DNA from: an uncultured Bacteroidota bacterium | Lineage (GTDB): Bacteria > Bacteroidota > Bacteroidia > Flavobacteriales > Flavobacteriaceae | Assembly (NCBI GenBank): GCA_902510415.1 | Contig: CABXBH010000001.1 | Span: 9,596-73,595, forward strand | DNA length: 64,000 bases | Reading direction: 5' to 3' | Part shown: positions 1,714 to 21,742 of the stretch, in pieces | Numbering within the stretch: position 1 is the stretch's first letter | Layout of the letters: the number at the start of each line of letters is the position of its first letter | Translations under genes and position numbers: made by a program | Notes under the pieces: model-generated | Databases searched by the model: none | What the model saw: the letters and a program-made list of their open reading frames with translations, nothing else | What the model was told of the DNA's origin: nothing

Positions 1714-1718
1714 GTGCT

Positions 1719-3381: not shown

Positions 3382-3391
3382 TTAATCAGTT

Positions 3392-7028: not shown

Positions 7029-7030
7029 TT

Positions 7031-7702: not shown

Positions 7703-7717
7703 AATAACAATTTATAA

Positions 7718-8728
7718 TTAACGTAATTTTTCTAGTATATATTTTTTGTTCATTATCGCTTCAAATATCTGTTTAAGTTTATTTTTAAAATACAGTATTA
7801 TATGACATACAAATTGATCAATATAAAACCAAGTTTTATTTTCATATTTCATAATCATCCTCATTCTATACAACTTATTGCTTATGAATCTAATTTCTTT
7901 AACATTGTTAGTTATTTCTAAGTAATCACTAATTATAAGATATCTTTCCACATATAAAAAATTTAATAAATTTCTATTTTTTTCAATTAAACTGCTAAAT
8001 AATTTGAAATCGTAAAGACTTCTGATATTATAACTTGCTCTTAATGATCCATTATCGTTAATCTGATGATTGTAAATTATATGTTTTAGCATATGAATGT
8101 TGCATGGAATAAATGATGTATTATTAAAGATTTTTGAATTTAAAAAGTTTTTTTCGTCCAAAAGTTTTCTTTTAGAATATTTTAGTAAGTGCCGGTGAAT
8201 TTCTATCGCAAAAATTTGATTTTTATTAATCAGTCTAGGATAATGTCTAGTGTTTATTTCTCTGTACCCCCTTGCTTTTTTATAACCAATACTTTTTAGT
8301 AATGTTATTGATTTTTGGAAATGACTTTTTGATACTAAAATATCAATATCTCCTATCATTCTAACCCCCAAATCTATCATATTGTTTTGAAGAACCATTG
8401 CGCTTCCTTTTAAAAACACATAATCTATTCTATGTTTATTAAAAATCTCAGCAATGACTTTGCATTCATATAATAAATCCGTATTTCTTCTTTTGTTTAT
8501 TAAATAAATTTCTTTAAGGTAGTTTTCTAATTCTGAAGGTATATACTTTAAATATTTTTTTTCCTTAAGTTTATAATACAATAATGGTAGTGAAAGAAAT
8601 TCACTTGTTTTTTTTACAAGTAATTCAAAATTAATATCATTGAATATATTCTTTGAAAGTTCTTTTTTGCTAAAAACTATATCAAACAAAAACTTTTCCT
8701 CTAAAGATTGCCTTTGTAATATTGGCAT
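7718..8728 (-). CDS. Uncharacterised nucleotidyltransferase family protein (NTP_transf_5-like, pol-beta NTase fold)
   Basis: FLKGSAMVLQNNMIDLGVRMIGDIDILV matches the hG[GS]...DxD NTase signature as arranged in the family annotated 'uncharacterised nucleotidyltransferase'. It is the only minus-strand gene inside the plus-strand EPS block. Confidence 0.5.
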   Translation of the reverse strand: MPILQRQSLEEKFLFDIVFSKKELSKNIFNDINFELLVKKTSEFLSLPLLYYKLKEKKYLKYIPSELENYLKEIYLINKRRNTDLLYECKVIAEIFNKHRIDYVFLKGSAMVLQNNMIDLGVRMIGDIDILVSKSHFQKSITLLKSIGYKKARGYREINTRHYPRLINKNQIFAIEIHRHLLKYSKRKLLDEKNFLNSKIFNNTSFIPCNIHMLKHIIYNHQINDNGSLRASYNIRSLYDFKLFSSLIEKNRNLLNFLYVERYLIISDYLEITNNVKEIRFISNKLYRMRMIMKYENKTWFYIDQFVCHIILYFKNKLKQIFEAIMNKKYILEKLR

Positions 8729-8796
8729 ATTAATTTTATGATATATTATAAATATAAGATATATTTCCTAAATTAGCGTCCTGTAAAAACTAAGAA

Positions 8797-9564
8797 ATGG
8801 ATTTAAAAAAATTGTTTTTTATTGTCTCTTTTGTTGTGGCTATTACATCTTGTTCAACTAAAAAAGATATAATTTATCTGCAAAACTCTGATCAATTTGT
8901 AAATTCACCATATACTTACATCGATTATAAAATACACCCTGGAGATATATTAAATATAGTTGTTTCAACATCCATCCCTGAAGCAGCCTTTGCCTATAAT
9001 AGAATATCACAATCTACTGCTATCTCTAATTCCTTAGAAGTTTTAAAGGTTCAAGGTTACCAAGTAAATAATTTAGGTAATATTAATTTTCCAGGTTTAA
9101 ATAAAGTAAATGTGATGGGTAAGACTTTACCCGAAATTGAAATTATAATCTTTGATTTATTATTTTCTAAAGGTTTATTAAAAGGCCATAATGTTTCTGT
9201 TAAGCTATTAAATTCTACCGTAACCGTACTAGGTGAAGTAAATAGGCCTGGAACTTTTAATTTCCTTGAAACTAACATTAATATAAACGAAGTTTTAGGC
9301 TTAGCAGGAGATTTAACAATAACAGCCAAAAGAAACGATATTAAGTTAATTAGAGATATAAATGGGAAAAGAAAAATATTTAAAATTGATTTAACAAATA
9401 TTGATTATCTAAATTCTGAGTCATATCAAATTTATAATGGAGATATAATAATTGTTAATCCAAATACAACAAGGGTAAAAAACTCTGGTATAATCGGTAA
9501 TTCGGGTACACTTATAAGTTTACTGTCATTTATTCTCACGTCGATAATAGTAATAAGAAATTAG
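8797..9564 (+). CDS. wza: Polysaccharide export outer-membrane lipoprotein (Wza family)
   Basis: Lipoprotein signal (VVAITSCS). Poly_export block (YKIHPGDILNIVV) and SLBB-like block (VTVLGEVNRPGTFNF). Lies directly upstream of wzc. Confidence 0.8.
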   Translation: MDLKKLFFIVSFVVAITSCSTKKDIIYLQNSDQFVNSPYTYIDYKIHPGDILNIVVSTSIPEAAFAYNRISQSTAISNSLEVLKVQGYQVNNLGNINFPGLNKVNVMGKTLPEIEIIIFDLLFSKGLLKGHNVSVKLLNSTVTVLGEVNRPGTFNFLETNININEVLGLAGDLTITAKRNDIKLIRDINGKRKIFKIDLTNIDYLNSESYQIYNGDIIIVNPNTTRVKNSGIIGNSGTLISLLSFILTSIIVIRN

Positions 9565-9568
9565 ACAG

Positions 9569-11932
9569 ATGGAAAATAACCTGGAAAATAGTTTAAAAGC
9601 CACAATTTTTAAGTATTTAGTTTTTTGGAAGCTAATCTTGTTTTCTATTATTATATTTCTATTTATGGGGTATATATTTCTTCGATATACTCCAAATACC
9701 TTTAAGACAACAGGGAAAATTGAAATTATTGATGATGCAATGGACAGTGAAATGGCACTTCCTACAGCAATGACAATATTTAACAGATCTACAATAAACT
9801 TAGAAAATGAAATTCAAAATATTAAGTCAAACAGATTAATTGATTCTGTTGTGAGAGAGACTAGATATTATACTAGAATCTTTAATGTAGGTAAAATTAG
9901 AAATACTGAGACCAGCGAAATTGATAGCTTTGAGGGTGTGCCTTATGAATTGGATATTAATTTTAACATCGATACGCTAAGCTCACCTGTAAAAATATAT
10001 ATTGAAGTAGATAAAAATGGTTTTAATTTTGAAATAATTGAAAAAAATGAATCAACATTTCATAAAATTAATGGTTATTCAACCGAATATTCTGATAAAG
10101 AACTTCCAATAAATTTTTCTGTTGAAAAAACATATATCAAAGAATTAACTGATAAAAAATATTTAATCATACTTAACCCTATATATCTTACTATAGAACA
10201 GCTTGTGGCTGATATTTTGGTTGAGCCAATCGGCAAAAACAGTGACATATTAATGTTGACTTATATTTCAGAAAACATATATAATTCTGAAAAAATAATC
10301 AATACACTAATCGATCTCTTTGATAAAGATGGTATTAAGGATAGACAGTTGGTGTATAGCAGAACAATCGATTTTGTTGATTCAAGATTTAATTTACTAA
10401 GTGGTGAATTAAACACAATCGAAAATCAAAAACAACTGTTTAAACAAGAAAATAATCTTAGTATTTTAGAAACTGATACTGAAATATCCTTAAATCAAAA
10501 ATTATCATTTGAAAATGAAGTTTTTCTAAAAGAAACTCAACTAGAATTAACTAATCTTCTTATAAGTTATCTTGAAACTAACAAAGACGATTTAATCCCG
10601 GTAAATCTTGGTATTGAGGATTCATCATTGAATTCATTTATTGATAGTTATAATAAATTAATTATTGAAAGAGATAAATTTTTATTTAATTCTGGAAGTA
10701 ATAATCCCAATTTAATTACATTAAACAAGCAGATTATAAGTTTGTCAAAAAATATTTCTAAATCATTGATTAATCACAGAGATAAGCTCAATCTACAGCT
10801 TCAGGGACTCTATAAGAAGAATGACAAGTTTTCTCAAGATTTTTTGAATCTACCAAAAAATGAAAAGCTGTTAAGATCAATAGAGAGAGAGCAATCTATA
10901 AAAGAAGCATTATTTTTATTATTACTTCAGAAAAGAGAAGAGGCTGCAATAAACTTTGCTGTAACAAAACCATCTTTAAAAATAATTGACAGTGCTGTAA
11001 CATCTACAGTACCCAATTATCCAAACAGGATGCTGATTTATTTTTTCTCAATAACTATTGGAGCATTATTCCCTATTTCAATATTATATATTTGGTTTTA
11101 TATAGACGATAAAATACATACTAAAGATCAATTAATTAATACAGGTTATAATATACCTGTAATCGGCGAAATTCCATATTTTGATGATTTAAAAGATGAA
11201 AATAGTGATAACAGATCTCCAGTTGCCGAAAGTTTTAGAATGCTAATTTCAAACTTAAACTTTGTCCTAGATAAAAAGAAAATTGAAAGAAGAGCAAAGA
11301 TCATTCTAGTTACTTCTACAATAAAGGGTGAAGGAAAGACTTTTATATCATATAATTCCGCCAAAATACTGGCCTCAAAATTTGAAAAAAATAATGTTCT
11401 GCTTATAGGAGCAGATCTGAGAAATCCACAGATTCATAAATTTATTGATTATGATAAAAAAACAAAAGGCCTTTCAAATTTTTTATCGTCTGATAATAAT
11501 TCTGTTGATGAATTTATAATAAAATCCACAGACGGATTTTCAATACTGCTTTCAGGGATAATTCCACCAAATCCAACCCAATTGCTTGGTAGTTCAAAAA
11601 TGAATGATTTGATTAAATCCCTTGGCGAAAAGTATGACTATATCATTATTGATTCTGCACCATGTTTATTAGTTTCTGACACTTTTGAAATATCAGCTTT
11701 TGCTGATTCAACTTTCTATGTATGTAGAGCTGCTCATTCTAATATTAAACTTCTTGAATTTGCTAATGAATGCAAACAAACGAAAAAGTTAAATAATATA
11801 AATTTCGTTCTTAATTCAGTTGGAAATAGTGGTATTTATGGCTACAAATATGGATATCAGTATGGGTATCAGTATGGATATAAGTATGGTTATAACTACG
11901 GATATGGCTACGGTTACTCTGAAGACAAATAG
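9569..11932 (+). CDS. wzc: Polysaccharide co-polymerase / BY tyrosine autokinase (Wzc family)
   Basis: Two TM segments flank a coiled periplasmic Wzz-like domain. Walker A VTSTIKGEGKT, A' LLIGADLRNP, B YIIIDSAP. C-terminal tyrosine cluster. Confidence 0.88.
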   Translation: MENNLENSLKATIFKYLVFWKLILFSIIIFLFMGYIFLRYTPNTFKTTGKIEIIDDAMDSEMALPTAMTIFNRSTINLENEIQNIKSNRLIDSVVRETRYYTRIFNVGKIRNTETSEIDSFEGVPYELDINFNIDTLSSPVKIYIEVDKNGFNFEIIEKNESTFHKINGYSTEYSDKELPINFSVEKTYIKELTDKKYLIILNPIYLTIEQLVADILVEPIGKNSDILMLTYISENIYNSEKIINTLIDLFDKDGIKDRQLVYSRTIDFVDSRFNLLSGELNTIENQKQLFKQENNLSILETDTEISLNQKLSFENEVFLKETQLELTNLLISYLETNKDDLIPVNLGIEDSSLNSFIDSYNKLIIERDKFLFNSGSNNPNLITLNKQIISLSKNISKSLINHRDKLNLQLQGLYKKNDKFSQDFLNLPKNEKLLRSIEREQSIKEALFLLLLQKREEAAINFAVTKPSLKIIDSAVTSTVPNYPNRMLIYFFSITIGALFPISILYIWFYIDDKIHTKDQLINTGYNIPVIGEIPYFDDLKDENSDNRSPVAESFRMLISNLNFVLDKKKIERRAKIILVTSTIKGEGKTFISYNSAKILASKFEKNNVLLIGADLRNPQIHKFIDYDKKTKGLSNFLSSDNNSVDEFIIKSTDGFSILLSGIIPPNPTQLLGSSKMNDLIKSLGEKYDYIIIDSAPCLLVSDTFEISAFADSTFYVCRAAHSNIKLLEFANECKQTKKLNNINFVLNSVGNSGIYGYKYGYQYGYQYGYKYGYNYGYGYGYSEDK
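11837..11917 (+). repeat. Strict (Tyr-X)n tail of Wzc: 14 tyrosines at every second residue (YGYKYGYQYGYQYGYKYGYNYGYGYGY)
   Basis: Read directly from the translation. At DNA level it is an imperfect 6/12-nt periodic repeat (tat-ggN-tat-Nag). Confidence 0.9.
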
Positions 11933-11934
11933 AA

Positions 11935-12666
11935 TTAACTAAATATCCTATTTGAATCAATTGCTTTTTCTAATTTTTCAACTTCATTAATTTTTATTTT
12001 TGATTCAAACTCTTTTATATGTCTTAAGTTGTGAATATCACTACCAACAAAGTCAATAAAATTTTCCCTTAGCAATTTATCACTTAGTTGTGAAATGTGT
12101 TTTCCATAATATCCGGTTGTAGATAATAGGTTAAGTTGAAATTTACATCCTATTTTCTTCAATTTATGAAAGTCTTTTAAATTGTTGTTAAACATATAAA
12201 TATACCTTTCTGGATGAGCGATAATAGGGATATAATCATTGAGCTGTAGCTTGAAAACAATTTCATATAAATTAATAGGTTTTGAGTTAAAACTAAGTTC
12301 AATTAAAATATAATTTTTATTTATCGTAAGAATTTGTTTATTCTCGGCTTTCTCTATTAAATATGAGTCTGTAAAATATTCAGTCGCATATTCAATTTCT
12401 AAACTCCCCTTTAAATTAGAATTCACTAAATCATAACTTTTAATTATTTTCTTGGGATTATTCTCATATAAGCCAGGGTATGTATGAGGTGTGGCAATTA
12501 TTTTCTTAAAACCCATTTTTTCCATTTCAGATAATAAAACTAATGATTCCTTTATGTCCTTAGCTCCATCATCGATTCCTGGAAGGATATGTGAATGAAT
12601 ATCAACAAATTCTTCAGGTATCAGTTCTTTTAAGGTTGGTTTAGACTTAAATAAATTAAAAATCAT
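11935..12666 (-). CDS. Tyrosine-protein phosphatase, PHP family (CpsB/CapC/Wzh type)
   Basis: N-terminal VDIHSHILPGIDDGA, then TPHTYPG, AHPERY and GSDIHN. These are the four metal-binding blocks of CpsB-type Mn-dependent phosphotyrosine phosphatases. Convergent with wzc, 2-bp gap. Confidence 0.82.
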   Translation of the reverse strand: MIFNLFKSKPTLKELIPEEFVDIHSHILPGIDDGAKDIKESLVLLSEMEKMGFKKIIATPHTYPGLYENNPKKIIKSYDLVNSNLKGSLEIEYATEYFTDSYLIEKAENKQILTINKNYILIELSFNSKPINLYEIVFKLQLNDYIPIIAHPERYIYMFNNNLKDFHKLKKIGCKFQLNLLSTTGYYGKHISQLSDKLLRENFIDFVGSDIHNLRHIKEFESKIKINEVEKLEKAIDSNRIFS

Positions 12667-12754
12667 ACATTTAAATTAAAATAACTTTTGTTTTTTTTCT
12701 TAAAGTTTTTAGAGACATTATAATATACACTATTTAAATTATTAAATTTGGAAT

Positions 12755-13858
12755 ATGAATTCAGAATTTCCGTTTTTTATTTATTATATAGGTCTGTTGA
12801 TAGCAACTTTATTTCTTTCAAGGTTCATTTTTAGAAAATATATTCAATTTGCAATGAGCTATAATCTGAAAAAACCCACAAATGATAGGGCAGTTCATAA
12901 AGGGATAGTATTTACAGGTGGAGGTATTGTTTATGCAGCTGTAATCATGGTAGCAGCACTTATACTAGATAATTTAGATTTTCTAGAATTTTCAAACTTT
13001 AGTCCAATAATAGCATCATCTATATTAGTGGCAATTCTTGGCTTTTATGATGACTTTGTTGATATTTCAGCATTTAATAAATATATAGTACTTACATTTT
13101 TGATTTTAATGTTGTTGTATGCAAATGCGACTTTACCAATTATTCAAAATTTAAATGGATTTTTAGGAATATATGAAATTGGATATATTCCAGGCTTATT
13201 ATTCACATCTTTCGTTTATTTATCCATCATGAATGCTATTAATTTAACTGATGGAATCGATGGTTATTTAGCTATATTTTCAATTTTCTTTTTCACATCA
13301 TTACTCTATAATTTTGATGTAAACAAATTCTATACTCTTAATACAGTTTCAGTTATTATAATTGGTTGTAGTATTATGTTTCTAAGGTATAATTTCTCAA
13401 AGGCAAAAAAACTATTTGTTGGCGATGCAGGATCCTTATTTATTGGATTTTGGATTGCGACATATTTAATTACTTACATAACAAGTGCTCCCACCTCACC
13501 ACTGGTTAATTTATATAAAATACAGCCTGAGAATATTCCGGTGATAGCAATATCTATGATATCTATTCCAGTTCTAGATACTCTAAGGGTAATGTTTAAT
13601 AGAATTATTAATAAAAAATCTCCTTTTGCAGCTGACAGGAATCACCTACATCATATTTTACTAGATAGTGGTATGTCACATCTTAGAACATCATTATTTT
13701 TGACCGTTATTAATTGGTTTAATTGTGTGCTTATATTTCTTATTGAGCAAAATTTTAACTCAAAAGAGCTAACAATTATATATATATTCATAAGTTTCCT
13801 TTGGTTTATCTCATTTGAATATGTTAATAGAAGAAATGTTAGTCTTTTAAAAGGTTAA
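12755..13858 (+). CDS. Polyprenyl-phosphate N-acetylhexosamine-1-phosphate transferase (MraY/WecA family, polytopic)
   Basis: About 10 hydrophobic segments. NLTDGIDG and VGDAGSLFIGF blocks of the MraY/WecA superfamily. 367 aa. Confidence 0.8.
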   Translation: MNSEFPFFIYYIGLLIATLFLSRFIFRKYIQFAMSYNLKKPTNDRAVHKGIVFTGGGIVYAAVIMVAALILDNLDFLEFSNFSPIIASSILVAILGFYDDFVDISAFNKYIVLTFLILMLLYANATLPIIQNLNGFLGIYEIGYIPGLLFTSFVYLSIMNAINLTDGIDGYLAIFSIFFFTSLLYNFDVNKFYTLNTVSVIIIGCSIMFLRYNFSKAKKLFVGDAGSLFIGFWIATYLITYITSAPTSPLVNLYKIQPENIPVIAISMISIPVLDTLRVMFNRIINKKSPFAADRNHLHHILLDSGMSHLRTSLFLTVINWFNCVLIFLIEQNFNSKELTIIYIFISFLWFISFEYVNRRNVSLLKG

Positions 13859-15341
13859 GTATTTGAATTCTCTTGTCTTGGGGGCTTTTAGAAATATTTA
13901 TAAAAGATTCAGACGAATTTGTTACAAATTCAAACTTTTCATTTAAAGATTCGATAATTTTATTTTTCACCTTAGATGCATAGTCATATGATAATCCATT
14001 ATCGACTAATCTCGCAACTATTTCATTACTGGAAACATTACTTTTTTCATTTAACATTTTGATTATTTCAACCCCGTTATTATCAATATTAATTTTAGTT
14101 GTTAAAAAGAATAGTTCATTATCTTCAAATGTATATAACTTTGCTTTAGAAATTTGTTCCTTTTTTCTAATACCTTTATACAATAAATTAATAATGATTA
14201 TAACTAGAGCAATTAGAATAGGGATAAAAAACTGATTTCTGGATTGTTCTATTTTGTAAAGAGGAATTTCTTCCATTGATGAAAGATCAATCAAATTATC
14301 CAGCCTATATTTGTTAAGAATACTAGTATTTGCTTTTGCATTATGGGGTTTAAATGTATGCACGTACTTATCATCTAATTCATGCATATTTAATCCCTCA
14401 AATTCTTGACCTTTTTTGTTAGCAGAAATGAACGTCCTATTACGATTGCTATATGGATAAGAATGGCCAATTTGTTGGTAGTTAAAGTCTTTGTTATAAT
14501 TATATCTTATTAATTTCTGATCAAGCATTTTCATTTGATAGAAATAATCTTTTTCAAATATATAAAAACAGGTTTCGTAGGGGATTATAACAGGGTTTTT
14601 AGATATGTCTATATTAATATTACCTAATTTTTCCCAGTTGTAAGTTTTAAAATCAAATTTTAAGATTGTTTGATTAAAAAATTGTTTGTTATTAAATGAA
14701 CTATTTCCTCCAACTATATAATAGTTTGAATCAATTAATAGGGAAGAAAAAGATGCTATTCCGTTTTTTATTTCAATAGGGATATCATTTTTGTATGTCA
14801 CTTCATCCCATTGGTTTGAATTACCTTCGTCAAATAATAATAATGCATTATTTGTTCTAAATAATCCATATCCTCCAAAATGATAAATTTTATTATTGAA
14901 TTCCACAATATCTCCAAAAAACTTATTCATGAATGGGAAACTATTATCTAACCTTAAAAAGCTCTTGTCTTTAATGGAAACATCAACAATTAATCCTCCA
15001 CCAGTGTGAAATAATTTAAATCCATTAGTTTTAAATTTTTTAAACTTAAGGTCTCCCATTAACCCATTAATTACTTCTTTATTTAACGAAAAAGAACTTC
15101 TGTAGAATCCTTTCCAAAACTTATTATTTACTTCACTGTCTTTAGGTTGGCTTAGTTGTGTAGATGAAATCAAATTTCCATTTTCTAAGGAGTAGGTATT
15201 AAGTTCTAATTTATTGTTAATTATATATAATTCATTGGATGAAATATCAATCTCATACAAAAACTCTCCATTTATTTCATTTGAATTGGGAGAATTAAAT
15301 CCAACAACAAAGCTTATTATATATATAATTAGACTCTTCAT
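13839..15341 (-). CDS. Hypothetical membrane-anchored protein: signal peptide + Kelch-like beta-propeller + single TM + cytoplasmic winged-helix-like tail
   Basis: Kelch-like blades (KIYHFGGYGLFRTNNALLLFDEGNSNQWDEV; NYYIVGGNSSFNNKQFFNQTILKFDFKTYNWEKL). TM at aa ~371-388 (FFIPILIALVIIIINLLY) followed by KGIRKK. The last ~100 aa resemble an OmpR/CadC-type wHTH by pattern only. Confidence refers to the ORF being real; the function is unknown. Confidence 0.8.
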   Translation of the reverse strand: MKSLIIYIISFVVGFNSPNSNEINGEFLYEIDISSNELYIINNKLELNTYSLENGNLISSTQLSQPKDSEVNNKFWKGFYRSSFSLNKEVINGLMGDLKFKKFKTNGFKLFHTGGGLIVDVSIKDKSFLRLDNSFPFMNKFFGDIVEFNNKIYHFGGYGLFRTNNALLLFDEGNSNQWDEVTYKNDIPIEIKNGIASFSSLLIDSNYYIVGGNSSFNNKQFFNQTILKFDFKTYNWEKLGNINIDISKNPVIIPYETCFYIFEKDYFYQMKMLDQKLIRYNYNKDFNYQQIGHSYPYSNRNRTFISANKKGQEFEGLNMHELDDKYVHTFKPHNAKANTSILNKYRLDNLIDLSSMEEIPLYKIEQSRNQFFIPILIALVIIIINLLYKGIRKKEQISKAKLYTFEDNELFFLTTKINIDNNGVEIIKMLNEKSNVSSNEIVARLVDNGLSYDYASKVKNKIIESLNEKFEFVTNSSESFINISKSPQDKRIQILNLLKD

Positions 15342-15360
15342 ATTAGAAAGAATGATTAGT

Positions 15361-15368
15361 CAAATATA
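15361..15368 (-). promoter_or_regulatory. Bacteroidota-type -7 promoter element TATATTTG (TAnnTTTG) for the Kelch/TM gene
   Basis: Exact TAnnTTTG match on the minus strand, 19 nt upstream of the ATG at 15341. Confidence 0.4.
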
Positions 15369-15376
15369 TTAAAAAA

Positions 15377-15417
15377 TTAATACAATGTCTGGTATTTTTA
15401 ATACAATGTCTGGTATT
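15377..15417. repeat. Perfect tandem duplication of a 20-bp unit TTAATACAATGTCTGGTATT (copies 15377-15396 and 15398-15417, 21-bp period); each unit is an imperfect 7-4-7 palindrome (AATACAA-TGTC-TGGTATT)
   Basis: Read directly from the sequence. Located 36-76 bp upstream of the start codon of the Kelch/TM gene, immediately upstream of its -7 box. Confidence 0.9.
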
Positions 15418-15448
15418 ATAATCAGAAGATTAAATTAAAATGACTTTA

Positions 15449-15458
15449 AATGTCTGGT
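15449..15458. promoter_or_regulatory. Third, partial copy (AATGTCTGGT core) of the 15377-15417 motif
   Basis: The 10-nt core is identical to both full copies and sits 44 bp from the core of copy 2. The flanks have diverged. Confidence 0.5.
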
Positions 15459-15468
15459 TTTTAAGAGC

Positions 15469-16131
15469 TTATACTGACTTTAGTTTTCTTATGATTTCTG
15501 TGGGATTTTCAGCTTTAAAAACATGACTTCCAGAAACCAATACATTCGCTCCATTATCAAGCAGTTTTTTTGCATTATAAACGGTGACTCCACCATCAAT
15601 CTCAATTTTACATTCAGAATTATTACGGTTTATGATCTCCTTAACTGTTTTACATCTTTCATAAGTTTCTTCAATAAAACTTTGACCACTAAATCCTGGA
15701 AAAACCCCCATTACTATTACTAAATCAATAGTATTAATAAATTTTTCTAACACATTAACATCTGTATCTGGATTTATTGCTATTCCGGCCTGTATTCCAT
15801 TTTTCTTGATACTTTTTATTACTTCATGCATATTATCCTTACATACTTCATAGTGAACCGTAAGAATATCACTACCTAATTCGGCGAATTTTTCTATGTA
15901 TTTTTCCGGATTTACTATCATTAAATGAACATCTAATGTTTTTGTTGCATACTGGCTGATTGATTTTAACACTGGCATACCAAATGATATGTTCGGGACA
16001 AAAACACCATCCATAATATCAATATGAAACCAATCGGCCTCACTTTCATTCACCATCATAATGTCGGTCTTTAAATCTGAAAAGTCAGCAGAAAGTATAG
16101 AAGGTGCTATTAATTGATTACCCATTAACAA
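15469..16131 (-). CDS. rpe: Ribulose-phosphate 3-epimerase
   Basis: IAPSILSADF, HIDIMDGVFVPN, HLMI and VNPGFSGQ-like (FPGFSGQSF) blocks. 220 aa. Confidence 0.93.
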   Translation of the reverse strand: MLMGNQLIAPSILSADFSDLKTDIMMVNESEADWFHIDIMDGVFVPNISFGMPVLKSISQYATKTLDVHLMIVNPEKYIEKFAELGSDILTVHYEVCKDNMHEVIKSIKKNGIQAGIAINPDTDVNVLEKFINTIDLVIVMGVFPGFSGQSFIEETYERCKTVKEIINRNNSECKIEIDGGVTVYNAKKLLDNGANVLVSGSHVFKAENPTEIIRKLKSV

Positions 16132-16173
16132 GAAATTTTAATAAAGGTAAATATTAATGAAATCATTTTTAAT

Positions 16174-17037
16174 TTATCCTAAATAAGTTTTTAGAATTTT
16201 ACTTCTTGAAGTATGTTTTAATCTTCTAATTGCTTTTTCTTTAATTTGGCGAACCCTTTCTCTTGTAAGATCAAAAGTTTCACCAATTTCCTCAAGGGTC
16301 ATAGGATGATGATTTCCAAGACCAAAATAAAGTTTTATTACATCAGCTTCCCTAGGGGTTAATGTTTCTAAAGCTCTTTCAATTTCAGTCCTTAGAGATT
16401 CGTGAATTAATTCTTTATCAGGATTTGGTGATTCACCACTTCTAAGAACGTCGTATAAATTAGAATCCTCACCTTCAACAAGAGGAGCATCCATGGAAAC
16501 ATGACGCCCAGAATTTTTCATTGACTCCTTAACATCGTTAATAGTCATGTCTAATTCATTAGCAATTTCCTCGGCACTTGGAGGTCTTTCATGAGATTGC
16601 TCTAAAAAAGCATACGTCTTGTTAATTTTATTAATCGATCCAATTTTATTTAACGGAAGTCTAACAATTCTAGATTGTTCAGCTAGTGCTTGCAGAATAG
16701 ATTGTCTAATCCACCAAACAGCATAAGAAATGAATTTAAAACCTCTTGTTTCATCAAATCTTTGTGCAGCTTTTATCAAACCAAGGTTTCCTTCATTTAT
16801 TAAATCCGGAAGCGTTAAACCTTGATTTTGATATTGCTTTGCTACTGAAACAACAAAACGTAAATTAGCTTTAGTAAGTTTTTCAAGGGCTAATTGGTCT
16901 CCTTGTTTAACTCTTTGCGCTAATTCAACTTCCTCCTCGGCAGTAATCAGATCAACTTTACCTATTTCTTGTAAATATTTGTCAAGTGAGGCTGTTTCTC
17001 TGTTAGTTACCTGTTTGGTTATCTTTAATTGTCTCAT
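16174..17037 (-). CDS. rpoD: RNA polymerase primary sigma factor (Bacteroidota short SigA/RpoD)
   Basis: Regions 2-4 are intact ([48 protein letters not shown]). 287 aa without region 1.1, as in Bacteroidota. Confidence 0.93.
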
Positions 17038-17076
17038 AATGAATTATATAGAAAGGTTTTAAGAATAAAAACTTTA

Positions 17077-17084
17077 CAAAAGTA
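17077..17084 (-). promoter_or_regulatory. Candidate -7 element TACTTTTG upstream of rpoD
   Basis: TAnnTTTG match on the minus strand, 39 nt upstream of the rpoD ATG. Confidence 0.3.
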
Positions 17085-17088
17085 TTAT

Positions 17089-19275
17089 TTATTTTTTATT
17101 AAAACCTTTTCTGTTATTGTTTCTGTTAAAAGTTTTCCTAGGCTTATCAACATAGCCTTCAGGCTTTGGAAGTAAAGCTTTTCTTGAAACTTTATCTTTT
17201 CTAGTCCTAGGATCAACTCCAAAGTACTTAACATCTAAAGTATCACCCATATTAACAACATCGGTAACTTTATCCGTTTTTTCCCATGCAAGTTCACTAA
17301 TATGAAGCAGAACTTCATTTCCTGGTGCTTCCATATACTCAACAACAGCTCCAAAGTCTAATAACTTAATCACTTTTACTTCGTATACACTACCCACTTC
17401 AGGTTTAAATAACATGGATTCAATTTTTGCTAATACCATATCAATTCCATCTTGATCCGTTCCTAGAATTTCTACAATTCCTTCCTCTGTATCAGGATCT
17501 TCGTTAATTACCAAGTTACAACCACTAGTTTTCTGTAATTCCTGAATATTTTTACCACCTGGACCGATTAATGTCCCGATGTAGTCACCAGGTATTCTTC
17601 TAGTAATCATTTTTGGTGCATGAGCTTTTACATCTCCATTTGGTACTTTAATAGTATCGGTTAGTTTATCTAAAATGTGTAATCTTCCGTCTTTTGCCTG
17701 ATTTAATGCTTCAATGAGAATCTCATAGGATAATCCTTTGATTTTAATATCCATTTGGCAAGCGGTAATACCGTCTGCTGTTCCTGTAACCTTAAAGTCC
17801 ATATCACCTAGATGATCTTCATCACCAAGAATATCACTTAATACTGCATGCTTTTTTCCATCAGAGATTAATCCCATTGCAATTCCTGAAACAGGTTTTT
17901 TAAGTTGAATCCCCGCGTCCATCAGCGCCATTGTTCCTGAACAAACTGTCGCCATTGATGATGATCCATTACTCTCAAGAACCTCACTTACAACTCTTAC
18001 AGTATAAGGACAATCTGAAGGCACCATTCTTTTTAATGCTCTTTGAGCAAGATTACCATGACCTATCTCACGTCTTGAAGTTCCTCTTAAAGGTCTAGCT
18101 TCACCTGTAGAGAAAGGAGGAAAGTTATAGTGTAAATAAAATCTTTCTTCACCTTCATATGTAGGTGAATCAATCTGATTTGCTTCCCTTGAAGTTCCAA
18201 GAGTAACGGTTGCTAATGCTTGTGTTTCTCCCCTTGTAAATAGGGACGAACCATGAGTAGATGGTAAATAGTCAACTTCACACCAAATAGGTCTAATATC
18301 AGTTGTTTTTCTTCCATCTAATCTAACTCCTTTTTCTAAGGTTAGATCTCTAATCGCTTCTTTTTCAGATTTGTAAAAATATTTTTTTATTAAATCTTCT
18401 TGTTCTTCTAATTCCTCTTCTGAAAAAGACTCCATTAATTCATCTTTAATTGCTCCAAAAGCTTCACCTCTTTCAACTTTTGAAAGACCTTTTTTAGCAA
18501 CATCGTAACATTTTTTATAGGTAAAGTCATTGACTTTTTTCATTAATTCTGCATCTTCCTCAGCTAAATCATATTCACGAGTTTCTTTTTTACCAAATGC
18601 TTTTGCTAGTTTTTCTTGAGCATCACATTGTTTTTTGATGAATTCATGTGCAAACTTGATTGCTTCAACCATTTCTTCTTCAGAACATTCTTCCATTTCA
18701 CCTTCAACCATCATTACAGAGTCTTTTGAAGCACCAACCATTATATCTATATCAGCTTCTTCTAATTGAGCTCTACTAGGATTGATAATAAATTCTCCAT
18801 TTATTCTTGCAGCTCTTGCCTCAGAAATAGCGCATTCGAAAGGGAAATCACTAAGTTGAATTGCTGCAGATGCAGCCAATCCAGCTAGTGCATCTGGCAT
18901 AACATCTTCATCATGAGACATTAACTGAATCATCACTTGAGTTTCATTGTGATAGTCTTTTGGAAATAGAGGTCTTAAAACTCTATCAACAAGTCTCATT
19001 GTTAAAATTTCATCACTGCTAGGTCTTGCTTCTCTTTTGAAGAACCCTCCTGGGTATTTACCTGCTGCTGCAAATTTTTCTCTGTAATCAACTGTTAATG
19101 GTAAAAAATCAACATTTGCACTTTTATAATTTGAGACAACTGTACATAACAACATACATTTTCCCATTTGAACTACTACAGATCCGTGAGCTTGTTTAGC
19201 TAATTTACCTGTTTCAATTGAAATGGATCTTCCGTCTCCTAAATCAATTACTTCTTTATACGTTTTAGGTATCAT
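17089..19275 (-). CDS. pnp: Polyribonucleotide nucleotidyltransferase (PNPase)
   Basis: 728 aa. Two RNase PH domains, then KH ([11 protein letters not shown]) and S1 ([19 protein letters not shown]) domains. Confidence 0.95.
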
Positions 19276-19356
19276 AATTATTTTTTGGTTTAATAAATTG
19301 TGTGTTGAAGTAGTTTTTAACCAATGAATAACTATAAAACAAAATGTAGAAAAGAG

Positions 19357-19626
19357 TTATTTTCTTAATCCTAACTCCTTAACAATAGCACGATATCTTA
19401 AGATATCTTTCTTTGTTAGATAATCTAATAGTGATCTTCTTTTTCCTACAAGCTTTACTAGGGCTCTTTCCGTGTTATAATCTTTCTTATTTCTTTTAAG
19501 ATGCTCTGTCAAATGATTTATTCTATGGGTAAAAAGGGCAATTTGACCTTCAGCACTTCCCGTATCTTTAGCATCTTTACCGTGCTTTTTGAATAAATCT
19601 TCTTTAGTTTTTTTTGTTAAATACAT
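19357..19626 (-). CDS. rpsO: 30S ribosomal protein S15
   Basis: 89 aa. GSAEGQIALFTHRINHLTEHLKRNKKD and RRSLLDYL blocks. Classic rpsO-pnp synteny. Confidence 0.95.
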   Translation of the reverse strand: MYLTKKTKEDLFKKHGKDAKDTGSAEGQIALFTHRINHLTEHLKRNKKDYNTERALVKLVGKRRSLLDYLTKKDILRYRAIVKELGLRK

Positions 19627-19672
19627 TCCAATATTATTTAAATGATTATTATGTATGCTGTTATCAGCGGCG

Positions 19673-19680
19673 CAAATATA
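19673..19680 (-). promoter_or_regulatory. Candidate -7 element TATATTTG upstream of rpsO
   Basis: Exact TAnnTTTG on the minus strand, 46 nt upstream of the rpsO ATG. Confidence 0.35.
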
Positions 19681-19714
19681 GTAAAAATTAAGAAATACAG
19701 AGAAAAAAGTAAGT

Positions 19715-20569
19715 TTATTCTCTAACAGGATTGTTTAATATTAAATCAAGATAAAGATTTATCTTCTTTTTTAAATCCCTTCTGTGAGTTATAAAATCAA
19801 GAAAGCCATGGTCTAATACAAACTCAGCAGTTTGAAAACCTTTTGGTAAATCCTTTCCTGTTGTGTCTTTTACCACCCTTGGGCCTGCAAAACCAATTAG
19901 TGCACCTGGTTCACTGATATTTACATCACCAAGCATTGCAAATGAAGCTGTTGTGCCACCAGTGGTTGGATCTGTACAAAGAGAAATATATGGAACTTTT
20001 GCTTCAGCTAATTGAGCTAATTTAGAAGATGTTTTTGCTAATTGCATTAATGAAATTGCAGCTTCCATCATTCTAGCTCCTCCAGATTTCGAAATTATAA
20101 CAAGCGGTATTTTCTTTTTTAGTGAATAATCTATGGCCCTAGCAATTTTTTCACCCACAACACTACCCATAGAACCCCCAATGAAGCTAAAATCCATACA
20201 CGCAATAACTATGTCATTTCCCATAGACTTTCCCACTGCAGTTCTAATAGCATCATTTAAATTTGTTTTTTCTTTAGCTGCTTTTAATCTATCAGTATAT
20301 TTTTTATTGTCTTCAAACTTTAGAGGGTCTTTAGAGGTAAGACTTGCATTAAGTTCTTTAAATTTATTGTCAAATACTATTGAAAAGTATTCTCTACTTC
20401 CAATTCTTACGTGATAATCATCTTCTGGGCTGACATAAAAATTATCTTGAAGTTCTTCAGTGTCTACAATTTTTCCTGTAGGTGACTTATACCATAAACC
20501 TTTTGGTATATCCTTTTTCTTCTCTGTTGGTGTCTGAATTCCTTTGTTCTGTCTTTTAAACCAAGCCAT
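19715..20569 (-). CDS. accD: Acetyl-CoA carboxylase carboxyltransferase beta subunit
   Basis: 284 aa. [15 protein letters not shown] and SGGARMQE-like (SGGARMMEA) blocks. The N-terminal zinc-ribbon region is present but lacks all four Cys. Confidence 0.92.
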
Positions 20570-20603
20570 AAACTATTAATTAGTATTCAACAAATCTAAA
20601 AAT

Positions 20604-21671: not shown

Positions 21672-21742
21672 AAAAAATAGTTATGTTTTGCGGTTAGTTT
21701 ACGTTAATTTTAGCACTAGTAAAGTTATGAATAACAAATAAA

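What the first reader, a model, noticed from the sequence alone, without database searches (positions are those of the whole stretch)
13839..15341. Sensor-TM-winged-helix protein (Kelch-like propeller outside, DNA-binding-like tail inside) at the edge of the polysaccharide locus
Seen directly: a hydrophobic signal-like N-terminus (MKSLIIYIISFVVGF). At least two Kelch-like blades follow (KIYHFGGYGLFRTNNALLLFDEGNSNQWDEV and NYYIVGGNSSFNNKQFFNQTILKFDFKTYNWEKL). There is one strongly hydrophobic helix at aa ~371-388 (nt 14178-14231), followed by KGIRKK, so the positive-inside rule puts the last ~110 aa in the cytoplasm. That tail (nt 13842-14144; ...LFFLTTKINIDNNGVEIIKMLNEKSNVSSNEIVARLVDNGLSYDYASKVKNKIIESLNEKFEFVTNSSESFINISKSPQDKRIQILNL) has the helix and hairpin spacing of an OmpR/CadC-type winged helix. 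That resemblance is my pattern match, not a search result. Known membrane-bound one-component regulators (ToxR, CadC) are ordered wHTH-TM-sensor. Here the order is reversed, which requires a cleaved signal peptide. The gene is tail-to-tail with the WecA-like gene (20-nt overlap) and has its own repeat-bearing promoter. It could therefore be a direct extracytoplasmic-signal-to-DNA regulator of the capsule/EPS genes. I do not recognise it as a characterised family.
Basis: partly seen in the sequence, partly recalled or inferred. Interest (0 to 1): 0.7.

Follow-up and report, generated by a model that had tools for sequence, protein, structure and literature searches.

The report
Membrane-anchored Kelch sensor with winged-helix tail
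This gene encodes an unannotated but widespread Bacteroidota protein with a sugar-sensor-like propeller outside the cell, one membrane helix and a DNA-binding-type domain inside, most likely a one-protein signalling switch that acts at least on its own, strikingly conserved, repeat-bearing promoter.

Summary
The 500-aa ORF at 13839-15341(-) has a signal-peptide-like N-terminus, a six-bladed Kelch-type propeller, one TM helix (aa 369-391) and a 109-aa tail that is the best conserved part of the protein.

AlphaFold2 models the tail confidently (pLDDT 88.6) as three beta-strands, three helices and a hairpin. Foldseek finds only winged-helix DNA-binding domains, at modest E-values. A profile-profile comparison with seven E. 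coli OmpR-family domains is in register (P=8.6e-5, probability 60%). The window's own tail matches no Pfam or NCBIfam model.

The family is large (686 representatives at 50% identity), spans Bacteroidota and is unnamed.

The promoter holds three ATAnnnGACAT boxes. The proximal pair is 21 bp apart and lies 20-21 nt before a TAnnTTTG box in nearly all orthologous loci. The paired box occurs nowhere else in 332 kb.

The polysaccharide link is partial. A GT4 transferase gene is the commonest immediate neighbour (6 of 37 lineages, p=7.7e-5), but no operator lies in the adjacent locus.

The sensor-TM-DNA-binding order is already known in this phylum (SusR, BguR). My verdict is a new variant of a known kind: probably a membrane-anchored, autoregulated one-component regulator. 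DNA binding is untested.

The parts
13839..15341 (-). Whole ORF (500 aa plus stop): signal peptide, Kelch propeller, TM helix, winged-helix tail
   Evidence: ORF list. About 200 full-length homologues at 51-95% identity. 686 representatives at 50% clustering with E<=1e-3.
15285..15341 (-). N-terminal signal-peptide-like segment (aa 1 to about 19: MKSLIIYIISFVVGFNSPN)
   Evidence: 13-residue uncharged run after MK, no Cys and no lipobox. AF2 helix 2-15 followed by a low-pLDDT stretch at 13-19. 105 of 115 family representatives have a hydrophobic N-terminus. Cleavage was not tested.
14256..15284 (-). Predicted periplasmic Kelch-type beta-propeller (aa about 20-362, roughly six blades) with the family-wide motifs R.D.SF.H..Q and GGYG(F/L)(W/F)
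   Evidence: Pfam Kelch_6 and Kelch_2 just above their cut-offs, PF24681 E=7e-9. AF2 strand pattern. Foldseek Kelch propellers at E=8e-8. Weak NanM/YjhT mutarotase hits in distant members. Conserved columns in A5.
14169..14237 (-). Single transmembrane helix (aa 369-391)
   Evidence: Kyte-Doolittle maximum of 2.55 for 19-residue windows starting at about aa 370. AF2 helix 369-391. All 115 representatives have one hydrophobic segment 100-149 aa from the C-terminus, with K+R 4.8 after it and 2.0 before it.
14136..14168 (-). Very short basic juxtamembrane linker (aa 392-402, RKKEQISKAKL)
   Evidence: AF2 low-confidence stretch at 392-398 between the TM helix and the first tail strand at aa 403. 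CadC's linker is about 50 residues (PMC5430869).
13851..14135 (-). Cytoplasmic winged-helix domain (aa 403-497): three beta-strands, a1 (421-432), a2 (438-447), recognition helix a3 (452-474), wing hairpin (481-497)
   Evidence: AF2 pLDDT 88.6, pTM 0.78. Foldseek: MarR-family and OmpR/PhoB/CadC DBDs, probability 0.96-1.0, TM up to 0.60/0.64, best E 0.017. Profile against PDB sequences: 2k4j E=0.0027. hhalign against E. coli OmpR-family DBDs P=8.6e-5.
13920..13988 (-). Predicted recognition helix a3 (aa 452-474, YDYASKVKNKIIESLNEKFEFVT)
   Evidence: Family-wide conservation: position 457 is K/R in 96%, K459 72%, N460 72%, N467 98%, K469 72% K (83% K/R). It aligns with the OmpR-family a3 'idv.i.rLRk.le'.
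13851..13901 (-). Wing beta-hairpin (aa 481-497, INISKSPQDKRIQILNL) with invariant D489 and R491
   Evidence: D and R are invariant in 47 diverse tails, S486 is 83% and position 485 is K/R in 81%. It aligns with the D-x-R wing of MarR-family proteins: AdcR and HpaR, MarR, SlyA and MprA.
15385..15395 (-). Proximal box ATACCAGACAT, 21 nt upstream of the TAnnTTTG box (covers the expected -33 position)
   Evidence: In almost all orthologous loci it lies 20-21 nt before TAnnTTTG.
15406..15416 (-). Middle box ATACCAGACAT, exactly 21 bp upstream of the proximal box
   Evidence: The 21-bp spacing is found in every orthologous locus that includes the upstream DNA except L049.
15450..15460 (-). Distal box AAACCAGACAT, 44 bp upstream of the middle box (33 bp in most other orthologues)
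15361..15368 (-). TATATTTG, a match to the Bacteroidota -7 promoter element TAnnTTTG, 27 nt before the ATG
   Evidence: Conserved in 22 of 24 unique orthologous upstream regions. The consensus itself comes from my own knowledge of Bacteroidetes sigma-A promoters and was not tested.
12755..13858 (+). Convergent, overlapping GT4 (WecA/MraY-family) polyprenyl-phosphate sugar-phosphate transferase gene, the family's most frequent neighbour
   Evidence: PF00953 E=8.6e-24. Adjacent in 6 of 37 lineages, Fisher p=7.7e-5.

Best explanation
The gene most likely encodes a membrane-anchored one-component transcription regulator.

Shown or strongly indicated: the N-terminal signal-like segment exports a six-bladed Kelch-type propeller to the periplasm. 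A single TM helix follows. An OmpR/PhoB-like winged-helix domain sits in the cytoplasm only about 12 residues from the membrane.

Inferred mechanism: binding of a periplasmic ligand to the propeller changes the oligomeric state or the relative orientation of neighbouring molecules. The ligand is probably a sugar or glycan, given the weak similarity to NanM-type mutarotases and the genomic link to polysaccharide initiation genes. As in ToxR/CadC, SusR and BguR, this would place two or three tail domains side by side on one face of the DNA.

The best candidate operator is the set of three direct ATAnnnGACAT boxes in the gene's own promoter. The proximal pair is exactly two helical turns (21 bp) apart. 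The proximal box lies where a -33 element would be, 20-21 nt upstream of the TAnnTTTG -7 box. That geometry suggests activator-type positive autoregulation, in the way a pho box replaces the -35 element. Repression by occlusion is equally possible from geometry alone.

Further targets are not identified. The recurrent adjacency to GT4 genes makes polysaccharide (capsule, EPS or O-antigen) initiation the most likely output pathway.
For: Architecture and topology:
- ORF, hydropathy and basic residues after the TM.
- Family-wide positive-inside bias of 4.8 against 2.0 K+R.
- AF2 full-length model with TM helix 369-391.

Sensor:
- Kelch Pfam hits and Foldseek Kelch propellers at E=8e-8.
- Weak NanM/YjhT hits in distant members.

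Output domain:
- The tail is the most conserved region of the protein.
- Confident AF2 model with the OmpR/CadC-type order of elements (CadC topology from PMC5430869).
- All top Foldseek hits are wHTH DNA-binding domains. OmpR/PhoB/CadC-type domains cover 97-104 columns with TM 0.53-0.64.
- The diverse tail profile hits the DNA-binding domain in PDB entry 2k4j at E=0.0027, plus PcoR, ArlR and NsrR weakly.
- Trans_reg_C is hit by 2 of 47 members.
- hhalign against seven annotated E. coli OmpR-family DBDs gives P=8.6e-5 over 66 in-register columns. The MarR control gives P=0.06 over the wing only.
- The family-wide conserved residues are basic or polar positions on a3 and the wing.
- Mean tail net charge is +8.2.

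Modularity: the same TM plus tail module follows a DUF285 ectodomain in neighbouring genes.

Operator: three GACAT boxes are kept at fixed spacing and at a fixed distance from TAnnTTTG across orthologues down to about 38% protein identity, while the spacers diverge. The paired box occurs once per locus and nowhere else in 332 kb.

Precedent: SusR and BguR have the same sensor-TM-DBD logic in the same phylum, and direct-repeat operators are predicted for SusR.

Pathway link: GT4 is 6 of 67 immediate neighbours against 0 of 248 other ORFs, p=7.7e-5, in several lineages and orientations. NusG/UpxY-like, Wza and Wzz genes also recur.
Against: - No direct evidence of DNA binding.
- Foldseek E-values are modest (best 0.017, none at or below 1e-3). 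hhalign probability is only 60%.
- The window's own tail hits no HTH model (HTH_5 E=0.14) and has a net charge of only +1.
- The 12-residue linker holds the domain tightly against the membrane, which constrains access to DNA.
- The boxes could be bound by another factor.
- Distant family members show no excess of upstream direct repeats over control genes, so autoregulation through direct repeats is not shown to be a family trait.
- No box pair lies in the adjacent polysaccharide locus.
- About four fifths of lineages have no polysaccharide genes nearby.
- Signal-peptide cleavage and topology rest on heuristics only.
Confidence: 0.55

Rival explanations
1. The winged-helix-like tail does not bind DNA. 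It is a protein-interaction module, and the protein is a membrane component or regulator of polysaccharide assembly. The periplasmic Kelch propeller would bind the nascent glycan or a precursor. The juxtamembrane tail would contact the cytoplasmic face of the adjacent GT4 initiating transferase or the Wzc kinase to tune initiation.
For: - GT4 is by far the most enriched immediate neighbour, in varied orientations, and two paralogues flank a GT4 gene in L038 and L100.
- The 12-residue linker keeps the tail at the membrane surface, where the GT4 and Wzc cytoplasmic domains are.
- The window's tail is nearly neutral at +1.
- No operator pair lies in the polysaccharide locus.
- Fold and profile statistics for a DNA-binding assignment are moderate only.
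Against: - Every structural neighbour is a DNA-binding wHTH.
- The invariant and near-invariant residues lie at the positions used for DNA contact in OmpR-type a3 and MarR-type wings.
- Family tails are on average strongly basic (+8.2).
- About 80% of lineages have no GT4 or export genes nearby.
- A conserved, phased direct-repeat element lies in the gene's own promoter.
Confidence: 0.2
2. The protein is a membrane-tethered transcription factor precursor. On signal, regulated proteolysis at or within the membrane releases the soluble winged-helix tail, which then acts on distant promoters.
For: The very short linker (about 12 residues) makes DNA access awkward for the intact protein. The juxtamembrane periplasmic segment (EQSRNQFF) and the TM helix are highly conserved in the orthologue group. 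Release by proteolysis is a known solution for membrane-tethered regulators; that last point is general knowledge and was not tested.
Against: - No protease gene is conserved nearby.
- The apparent stand-alone tails in databases are frameshift fragments, not natural short forms.
- ToxR/CadC, SusR and BguR are thought to act while membrane-bound.
- The 21-bp, same-face phasing of the boxes fits tethered binding.
Confidence: 0.1
3. The conserved GACAT boxes are the operator of a different regulator that controls this gene. The Kelch-TM-wHTH protein, if it binds DNA at all, has other, unidentified targets.
For: Nothing ties the boxes physically to this protein. Distant family members lack comparable upstream repeats. 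Boxes that appear only at this one promoter within 332 kb fit any dedicated local control.
Against: The boxes are conserved together with the nearly invariant recognition helix across the orthologue group, down to about 38% overall identity. Direct repeats on one DNA face are what a tandem-binding OmpR-type, membrane-tethered protein would need. No other regulator gene is conserved next to the locus.
Confidence: 0.15

Closest known systems
ToxR-like receptors (ToxR, CadC, TcpP, PsaE, WmpR)
   Same: One protein joins a periplasmic sensor, a single TM helix and a cytoplasmic OmpR-type winged helix, with no phosphorelay. Activity depends on dimerisation at the membrane (PMC5430869). The CadC DBD (5ju7) is among the fold matches of the tail, and CadC is one of the seven sequences in the OmpR-family profile that aligns in register.
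   Different: The order is inverted: here the sensor is N-terminal and the DNA-binding domain C-terminal, so the protein needs a signal peptide or an N-terminal anchor. The linker is about 12 residues instead of about 50. The sensor is a Kelch propeller. The wing carries a MarR-like D-x-R motif. The tail does not reach the Pfam Trans_reg_C threshold.
[quoted passage not shown]
   Same: Same phylum and the same order: signal peptide, beta-propeller sensor, single TM, C-terminal DNA-binding domain, no phosphorelay, and a putative binding motif near the regulated genes (bioRxiv 10.64898/2026.01.10.698779).
   Different: BguR is 940 aa with tandem HTCS-like propellers plus a Y_Y_Y domain and a GerE/LuxR HTH. 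It is strictly PUL-associated. The protein here is 500 aa with one Kelch propeller and an OmpR-like winged helix, is not PUL-associated, and shows no PF00196, PF07494 or PF07495 hits.
SusR and SusR-like regulators (Bacteroides)
   Same: A membrane protein with a periplasmic sensor and a C-terminal cytoplasmic DNA-binding domain that resembles no standard TF family. Its predicted operators are direct repeats placed on one face of the DNA (PMC3878776).
   Different: SusR regulates starch or dextran PULs. Its predicted boxes are 67-77 bp apart, against 21 bp here. SusR did not appear in either tail-profile search.
OmpR/PhoB-family response-regulator effector domains (Trans_reg_C)
   Same: The fold and element order match: N-terminal beta-sheet, a1, a2, loop, recognition helix a3, C-terminal hairpin. 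There is in-register profile similarity. These domains bind direct repeats head to tail. PhoB boxes replace the -35 element; that last point is my own knowledge.
   Different: There is no receiver domain and no phosphorylation. Helix a3 is much longer (23 residues). The wing motif is different. The similarity is below family thresholds.
MarR-family winged helix
   Same: Best Foldseek E-values (0.017-0.05, about 82 columns). The wing motif S..D.R...Y.L matches AdcR, HpaR and MarR.
   Different: Only the wing aligns at profile level (probability 0.9%, P=0.06). The MarR dimerisation helices are absent. The tail has an N-terminal beta-sheet that MarR proteins lack.

Membership tests
Kelch-type beta-propeller | Kelch repeat profile matches | tested here: met
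   Kelch_6 scores 25.5 against cut-off 25.3, and Kelch_2 scores 22.5 against 21.3. PF24681 gives E=7e-9 but is below its cut-off. The matches are stronger in distant members, for example P0278 with Kelch_6 at 46.7 bits.
Kelch-type beta-propeller | Propeller fold of four-stranded blades | tested here: met
   AF2 model with pLDDT 80.3 and about six blades. Foldseek matches KLHDC3, KLHDC2, LZTR1 and Keap1 at E=8e-8 to 1e-5.
OmpR/PhoB effector domain (Pfam Trans_reg_C, PF00486) | Match to the family profile above threshold | tested here: not met
   The window's tail has no Trans_reg_C hit at E<=1. Only 2 of 47 diverse family tails hit it, with a best E of 6.2e-4.
OmpR/PhoB effector domain (Pfam Trans_reg_C, PF00486) | Topology: N-terminal antiparallel sheet, a1, a2, a3, C-terminal hairpin | tested here: met
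   AF2 tail model: E12-15, E18-21, E24-26, H30-41, short strand, H47-56, H61-83, E90-94, E102-106. The CadC topology is given in PMC5430869. Foldseek finds SaeR, AdeR, CadC, VanR and PhoP DBDs over 93-104 columns with TM 0.52-0.64.
OmpR/PhoB effector domain (Pfam Trans_reg_C, PF00486) | Detectable homology by profile-profile comparison | tested here: inconclusive
   hhalign of A3 against seven E. coli OmpR-family DBDs: probability 60%, P=8.6e-5, 66 in-register columns. hmmsearch of A3 against PDB sequences: 2k4j at E=0.0027.
OmpR/PhoB effector domain (Pfam Trans_reg_C, PF00486) | Sequence-specific binding to direct repeats | not testable with these tools
   There is only indirect evidence: conserved phased direct repeats in the gene's own promoter.
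ToxR-like receptors | Single polypeptide with a periplasmic sensor, one TM helix, a cytoplasmic OmpR-type DBD and no phosphorelay domains | tested here: met
   No HisKA, HATPase or REC hits.
ToxR-like receptors | Order: N-terminal cytoplasmic DBD, TM, C-terminal periplasmic sensor | tested here: not met
   The order is the reverse throughout the family.
BguR / HTCS-derived membrane one-component regulators | Order: signal peptide, periplasmic sensor, TM, C-terminal DBD | tested here: met
   The BguR architecture is described.
BguR / HTCS-derived membrane one-component regulators | Reg_prop tandem propellers plus a Y_Y_Y domain and a GerE/LuxR HTH | tested here: not met
   None of these Pfam families is hit by the window protein or by ten distant members.
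BguR / HTCS-derived membrane one-component regulators | Location in or next to a polysaccharide utilisation locus | tested here: not met
   The neighbourhoods and the unbiased clustering show no recurrent SusC/SusD or PUL association. One distant member lies near GH92/GH106 genes.
SusR-like regulators | Homology to the SusR C-terminal DNA-binding domain | not tested
   No SusR sequence was available. No protein named SusR was returned by the tail-profile searches.
MarR family | Whole-domain profile similarity, including the dimerisation helices | tested here: not met
   hhalign against MarR, SlyA and MprA gives probability 0.9% and P=0.06, over the 23 wing columns only. The tail is too short to hold the flanking MarR helices.

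The most novel reading that the evidence does not exclude
This would be a third, so far unrecognised class of Bacteroidota membrane-spanning one-component systems, a 'reverse ToxR'. A periplasmic Kelch propeller senses a glycan or sugar. It acts directly, without phosphorelay or proteolysis, through a juxtamembrane OmpR-like winged helix that binds phased direct repeats at the membrane. The protein autoregulates and sets the initiation of capsule or EPS synthesis through GT4. The same TM plus winged-helix output module is reused with other ectodomains such as DUF285.
Probability: 0.3. Interest if true: 0.75.

Novelty: new variant of a known kind. Interest (0 to 1): 0.6.

Why it matters
Membrane-spanning one-component regulators are the simplest way to couple an outside signal to transcription. 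In Bacteroidota only SusR and, very recently, BguR have been described, and the BguR paper states that a comparable architecture was known only for SusR. This finding points to a further large family, unnamed and invisible to Pfam and NCBIfam for its output domain, with hundreds of clusters from marine Flavobacteriaceae to Cytophagales and Chitinophagaceae. It uses a different sensor (a single Kelch propeller) and a different DNA-binding fold (OmpR-like).

It offers a directly testable system: a 109-aa tail and an unusually clean candidate operator of three phased GACAT boxes. It also gives a lead to how abundant, uncultured marine Bacteroidota might control initiation of surface polysaccharide synthesis. 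If the tail binds DNA only about 12 residues from the membrane, that also bears on how membrane-tethered regulators reach the chromosome.

Tried and rejected
1. A narrow tail profile (A2, close orthologues only) against PDB sequences found nothing relevant. A diverse profile (A3) was needed.
2. Two of the three large word-indexed protein searches, run with the tail profiles A2 and A3, returned only short fragments of the same orthologue group. They gave no other architecture, no SusR and no informative source name; one 71-aa fragment is labelled 'predicted DNA-binding ribbon-helix-helix protein' by JGI.
3. 'Tail-only' proteins of 66-193 aa are not stand-alone genes. The two I checked on long contigs are pieces of frameshift-split genes in error-prone assemblies, with the same synteny.
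4. A family-wide test for upstream direct repeats in 34 distant lineages, against 85 control genes and shuffles, showed no excess. Individual checks of L003, L004 and L006 agreed. The operator-like footprint is therefore specific to this orthologue group.
5. A search for further operator sites found none. The paired box is unique in the window. The single box ATAnnnGACAT is not enriched (5 observed, 5.7 expected), and its only intergenic copies are the two upstream of this gene. There is no pair elsewhere in 332 kb. I therefore reject the idea that the adjacent polysaccharide genes share this operator.
6. The sigma-70 promoter and terminator scan was uninformative (22 sites against 22.4 expected). 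Its promoter model does not suit Bacteroidota.
7. MarR-family membership is rejected at profile level, despite the best Foldseek E-values.
8. NCBIfam and the source names gave no annotation.
9. Early sampling of three distant neighbourhoods suggested no polysaccharide link at all. The larger, unbiased survey corrected this to a partial but significant GT4 link.
10. SignalP or DeepTMHMM, a dimer or DNA-complex prediction and a direct SusR comparison could not be run.

Full report
1. THE OBSERVATION

The organism is AT-rich. GC is 25-27% in the polysaccharide locus and in this gene, and 31-34% in the pnp/rpoD block from about position 16000.

- On one side lie Wza (8797-9564, Poly_export+SLBB), a Wzc-like tyrosine kinase (9569-11932), a CpsB/CapC phosphatase (11935-12666, minus strand) and a GT4 WecA/MraY-family transferase (12755-13858). 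The GT4 gene overlaps the 3' end of our gene by 20 nt.
- On the other side lie rpe, rpoD and pnp, on the same strand as our gene.

2. ARCHITECTURE

The N-terminus is MK followed by 13 uncharged residues and has no cysteine. That hydrophobic stretch is short, which suggests a signal peptide more than a TM anchor. Cleavage could not be tested.

Residues from about 20 to 362 are a Kelch-type propeller.
- Pfam Kelch_6 and Kelch_2 only just pass their cut-offs, and PF24681 gives E=7e-9.
- The AlphaFold2 model built from 26 homologues (pLDDT 80.3) shows about six four-stranded blades.
- Foldseek matches KLHDC3, KLHDC2, LZTR1 and Keap1 propellers at E=8e-8 and weaker.

A single strongly hydrophobic helix spans aa 369-391. 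It is followed by KGIRKK.

Across 115 full-length representatives of the family there is always one such segment, 100-149 residues from the C-terminus. K+R averages 4.8 in the 15 residues after it and 2.0 before it. The positive-inside rule therefore places the tail in the cytoplasm across the whole family.

3. THE TAIL

In an alignment of 26 orthologues at 52-69% identity, the tail is the best conserved part of the protein. The block VDNGLSYDYASKVKNKIIESLNEKF...ISKS.QDKRIQIL is nearly invariant.

The window's tail matches no Pfam or NCBIfam model; the best hit is HTH_5 at E=0.14. A profile of close orthologues finds nothing in the PDB.

AlphaFold2 models the tail confidently (pLDDT 88.6, pTM 0.78). 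The order of elements is three short strands, helix a1, a bridge strand, helix a2, a four-residue loop, a long helix a3 and a beta-hairpin. This is the order of OmpR/PhoB/CadC DNA-binding domains (CadC topology in PMC5430869).

In the Foldseek search of the PDB, all 50 top hits listed are winged-helix DNA-binding proteins.
- MarR-family proteins have the best E-values (0.017-0.05) but align over only about 82 columns.
- OmpR/PhoB-type domains (SaeR 4ixa, AdeR 5x5l, CadC 5ju7, VanR, PhoP, NsrR) align over 93-104 columns, with TM-scores up to 0.60 (query-normalised) and 0.64 (target-normalised).
- No E-value reaches 1e-3, so on its own this is moderate evidence.

I then built a diverse tail alignment (A3: 47 sequences at 16-44% identity to the window).
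- As a profile it hits the DNA-binding domain in PDB entry 2k4j at E=0.0027, in register from the strands to a3. PcoR, ArlR and NsrR appear weakly. The MarR-type AdcR and HpaR are hit through the wing.
- Pfam Trans_reg_C is hit by only 2 of 47 tails, with a best E of 6e-4.
- Against an alignment of seven annotated E. coli OmpR-family domains (PhoB, OmpR, CadC, CpxR, PhoP, KdpE, ArcA), hhalign gives probability 60% and P=8.6e-5 over 66 in-register columns.
- The same test against MarR, SlyA and MprA aligns only the 23-column wing, with probability 0.9% and P=0.06.

The family-wide conserved tail residues are position 457 (K/R in 96%), K459, N460, N467 (98%) and K469 on a3, and K485, S486, D489 (100%), K490 and R491 (100%) in the wing. 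These are the places where OmpR-type recognition helices and MarR-type D-x-R wings touch DNA; that comparison rests on my knowledge of those families.

Tails are basic on average (net +8.2), but the window's own tail is only +1.

Conclusion: the tail is a winged helix with an OmpR/PhoB-like body and a MarR-like wing motif. It works like an OmpR-type domain, but it does not pass the family's membership threshold.

4. THE FAMILY

The exhaustive profile search found 686 representatives (50% clusters) at E<=1e-3. Nearly all full-length ones (420-520 aa) share the same plan of signal-like N-terminus, Kelch propeller, TM and tail.

None carries a name, and none hits an NCBIfam model above threshold. 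There are weak hits to NanM/YjhT sialic-acid mutarotases, which are themselves periplasmic Kelch proteins.

Close orthologues come from uncultured marine Bacteroidetes single-cell genomes. Distant members come from Emticicia, Chitinophagaceae and Crocinitomicaceae.

Database 'tail-only' proteins are artefacts of frameshifted assemblies.

A neighbouring gene type combines a DUF285/BspA-like repeat ectodomain with a TM and a homologous tail (Pfam E=1.5e-55 for DUF285; hhalign of the tail against A3 gives P=7.6e-5 over 80 columns). The TM plus tail unit therefore behaves as a reusable output module.

5. THE PROMOTER

The 127-nt gap after rpe holds three direct ATAnnnGACAT boxes. Their GACAT cores start at 15454, 15410 and 15389 on the minus strand. 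TATATTTG follows at 15368-15361.

Of 24 unique upstream regions from the orthologue group, 21 have three exact GACAT cores. These include subfamilies at only about 38-41% protein identity.
- The proximal pair is exactly 21 bp apart.
- The distal box lies 33 or 44 bp further upstream.
- The proximal core lies 20-21 nt before a TAnnTTTG box in nearly all of them.
- The spacers between the boxes diverge.
- L046 keeps the proximal pair, but its distal core reads GACAC.
- L049 is an outlier, and its start codon may be mis-called.

GACAT-N16-GACAT occurs once per locus, always at this place, in 28 of 32 orthologous loci. Three of the four loci without it (L015, L039, L050) are truncated before the gene's start; the fourth is L049. 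The pair occurs nowhere else on either strand in the 64-kb window plus 268 kb of loci. My rough composition-based estimate is about 0.5 chance occurrences.

TAnnTTTG is the Bacteroidetes -7 element (my knowledge). The proximal box then covers the -33 position.

This is a clean phylogenetic footprint of a cis-regulatory element made of phased direct repeats. That is what a tandem-binding, membrane-tethered OmpR-type domain would need, and it recalls the direct-repeat operators predicted for SusR. Assigning the boxes to this protein is an inference.

Distant family members do not show an excess of upstream repeats.

6. LINK TO POLYSACCHARIDE GENES

In the orthologue group the synteny rpsO-pnp-rpoD-rpe-[gene]-GT4-wza/wzz is conserved on both sides. 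By itself that says little.

The first three distant members I sampled had unrelated neighbours. A distant member at about 22% identity then turned up in a differently arranged locus: NusG/UpxY-like, Wza, Wzz, a second family paralogue, GT4, then the gene.

I therefore fetched 80 more loci and de-replicated all loci into 37 lineages at 60% identity. I then clustered the neighbouring proteins without prior labels.
- GT4 is the top neighbour family. It is present in 6 lineages and is always within 104 bp.
- A NusG/KOW protein of the capsule-antiterminator type comes next, in 4 lineages. Wza and Wzz recur.
- GT4 accounts for 6 of 67 immediate neighbours and 0 of 248 other ORFs in the same loci (Fisher p=7.7e-5).
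- The linked members lie on several branches of a rough tree (21-49% identity) and in convergent, divergent and co-directional arrangements.

So a functional link to polysaccharide initiation is supported for about a fifth of lineages, this one included. About four fifths show none. No operator pair lies in the adjacent locus.

7. MECHANISM

The best-supported reading is a membrane-anchored one-component regulator. A periplasmic Kelch propeller would sense a ligand, probably a carbohydrate. Signalling through one TM helix would most plausibly work by changing the oligomeric state, as in CadC and as proposed for BguR. Two or three juxtamembrane winged helices would then bind the phased boxes and control the gene's own promoter, and possibly other targets.

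- Shown: the domain order, the topology bias, the fold class, the footprint and the GT4 enrichment.
- Inferred: DNA binding, the assignment of the boxes to this protein, activation as opposed to repression, the nature of the ligand and any capsule regulon.

Rival readings are a non-DNA-binding tail that couples to the GT4 or Wzc machinery, release of the tail by proteolysis, and boxes that belong to another regulator.

8. COMPARISON AND NOVELTY

ToxR-like receptors share the parts but in the opposite order. SusR and BguR share the order, the phylum and the logic, but use different sensor and output domains. The BguR preprint says a comparable architecture was previously described only for SusR.

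Full-text searches for this domain combination returned nothing.

I therefore rate the finding as a new variant of a known kind. It is an unannotated, widespread family with a new domain combination and an unusually testable candidate operator. Interest is about 0.6, limited by moderate fold and profile statistics, the absence of any experiment and an unidentified regulon.

Noticed in passing
L101:604-1737 (-); similar genes in L058, L081, L082, L089: A 377-aa protein with a DUF285/BspA-like repeat ectodomain (Pfam E=1.5e-55), one TM helix and a tail homologous to this family's tail (hhalign P=7.6e-5, ending DPNDKRSFLYKINY). Such a gene lies next to Kelch-TM-wHTH genes in 5 of 37 lineages. The TM plus winged-helix module is therefore shared by a second ectodomain type.
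   Followed up: partly
L038:5551-6948(-) and 8001-9350(+); L100:7339-8943(-) and 9773-11260(+); L085 (three copies): Family paralogues occur in tandem. In L038 and L100 two paralogues (26% identical to each other within L038, 23% within L100) flank a GT4 gene beside NusG/UpxY-like, Wza and Wzz genes.
   Followed up: partly
L117:11079-12521(-); also L073 and L108: A ParB_N plus N6/N4 DNA-methylase fusion gene directly abuts the family gene in three related lineages. It may be a mobile or restriction-modification-linked context.
   Followed up: no
window 9569-11932 (+) and 11935-12666 (-): A Wzc-like BY-kinase (Wzz, GNVR, AAA_31) ends in a long Tyr-rich tail, YGYKYGYQYGYQYGYKYGYNYGYGYGY. It lies back to back with a CpsB/CapC PHP-type phosphotyrosine phosphatase (PF19567, E=2e-45).
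   Followed up: no
window about 1-16000 compared with 16000-22000: There is a step in base composition. The polysaccharide locus and the Kelch-TM-wHTH gene have 25-27% GC, and the pnp-rpoD housekeeping block has 31-34%. Compositionally the gene groups with the polysaccharide locus.
   Followed up: no
window 13839-13858: The 3' ends of the convergent GT4 gene and this gene overlap by 20 nt. The overlap is kept in orthologues (11 nt in L001, 20 nt in L002), so there is no room for a terminator between them and convergent transcription could interfere.
   Followed up: partly
L035 and L036 (long-read metagenome contigs): Many short 'tail-only' or 'Kelch-only' database proteins are fragments of frameshift-split genes. 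JGI labelled one 71-aa fragment 'predicted DNA-binding ribbon-helix-helix protein'.
   Followed up: yes
window 13842-14168 (-): The window's tail has a net charge of only +1, the lowest of 47 diverse family tails (mean +8.2, maximum +16).
   Followed up: no
L009, upstream of 4998; L016, upstream of 4956: In two orthologues the distal box is duplicated as GACATTTAAAGACAT (cores 10 bp apart), giving four GACAT cores instead of three.
   Followed up: no
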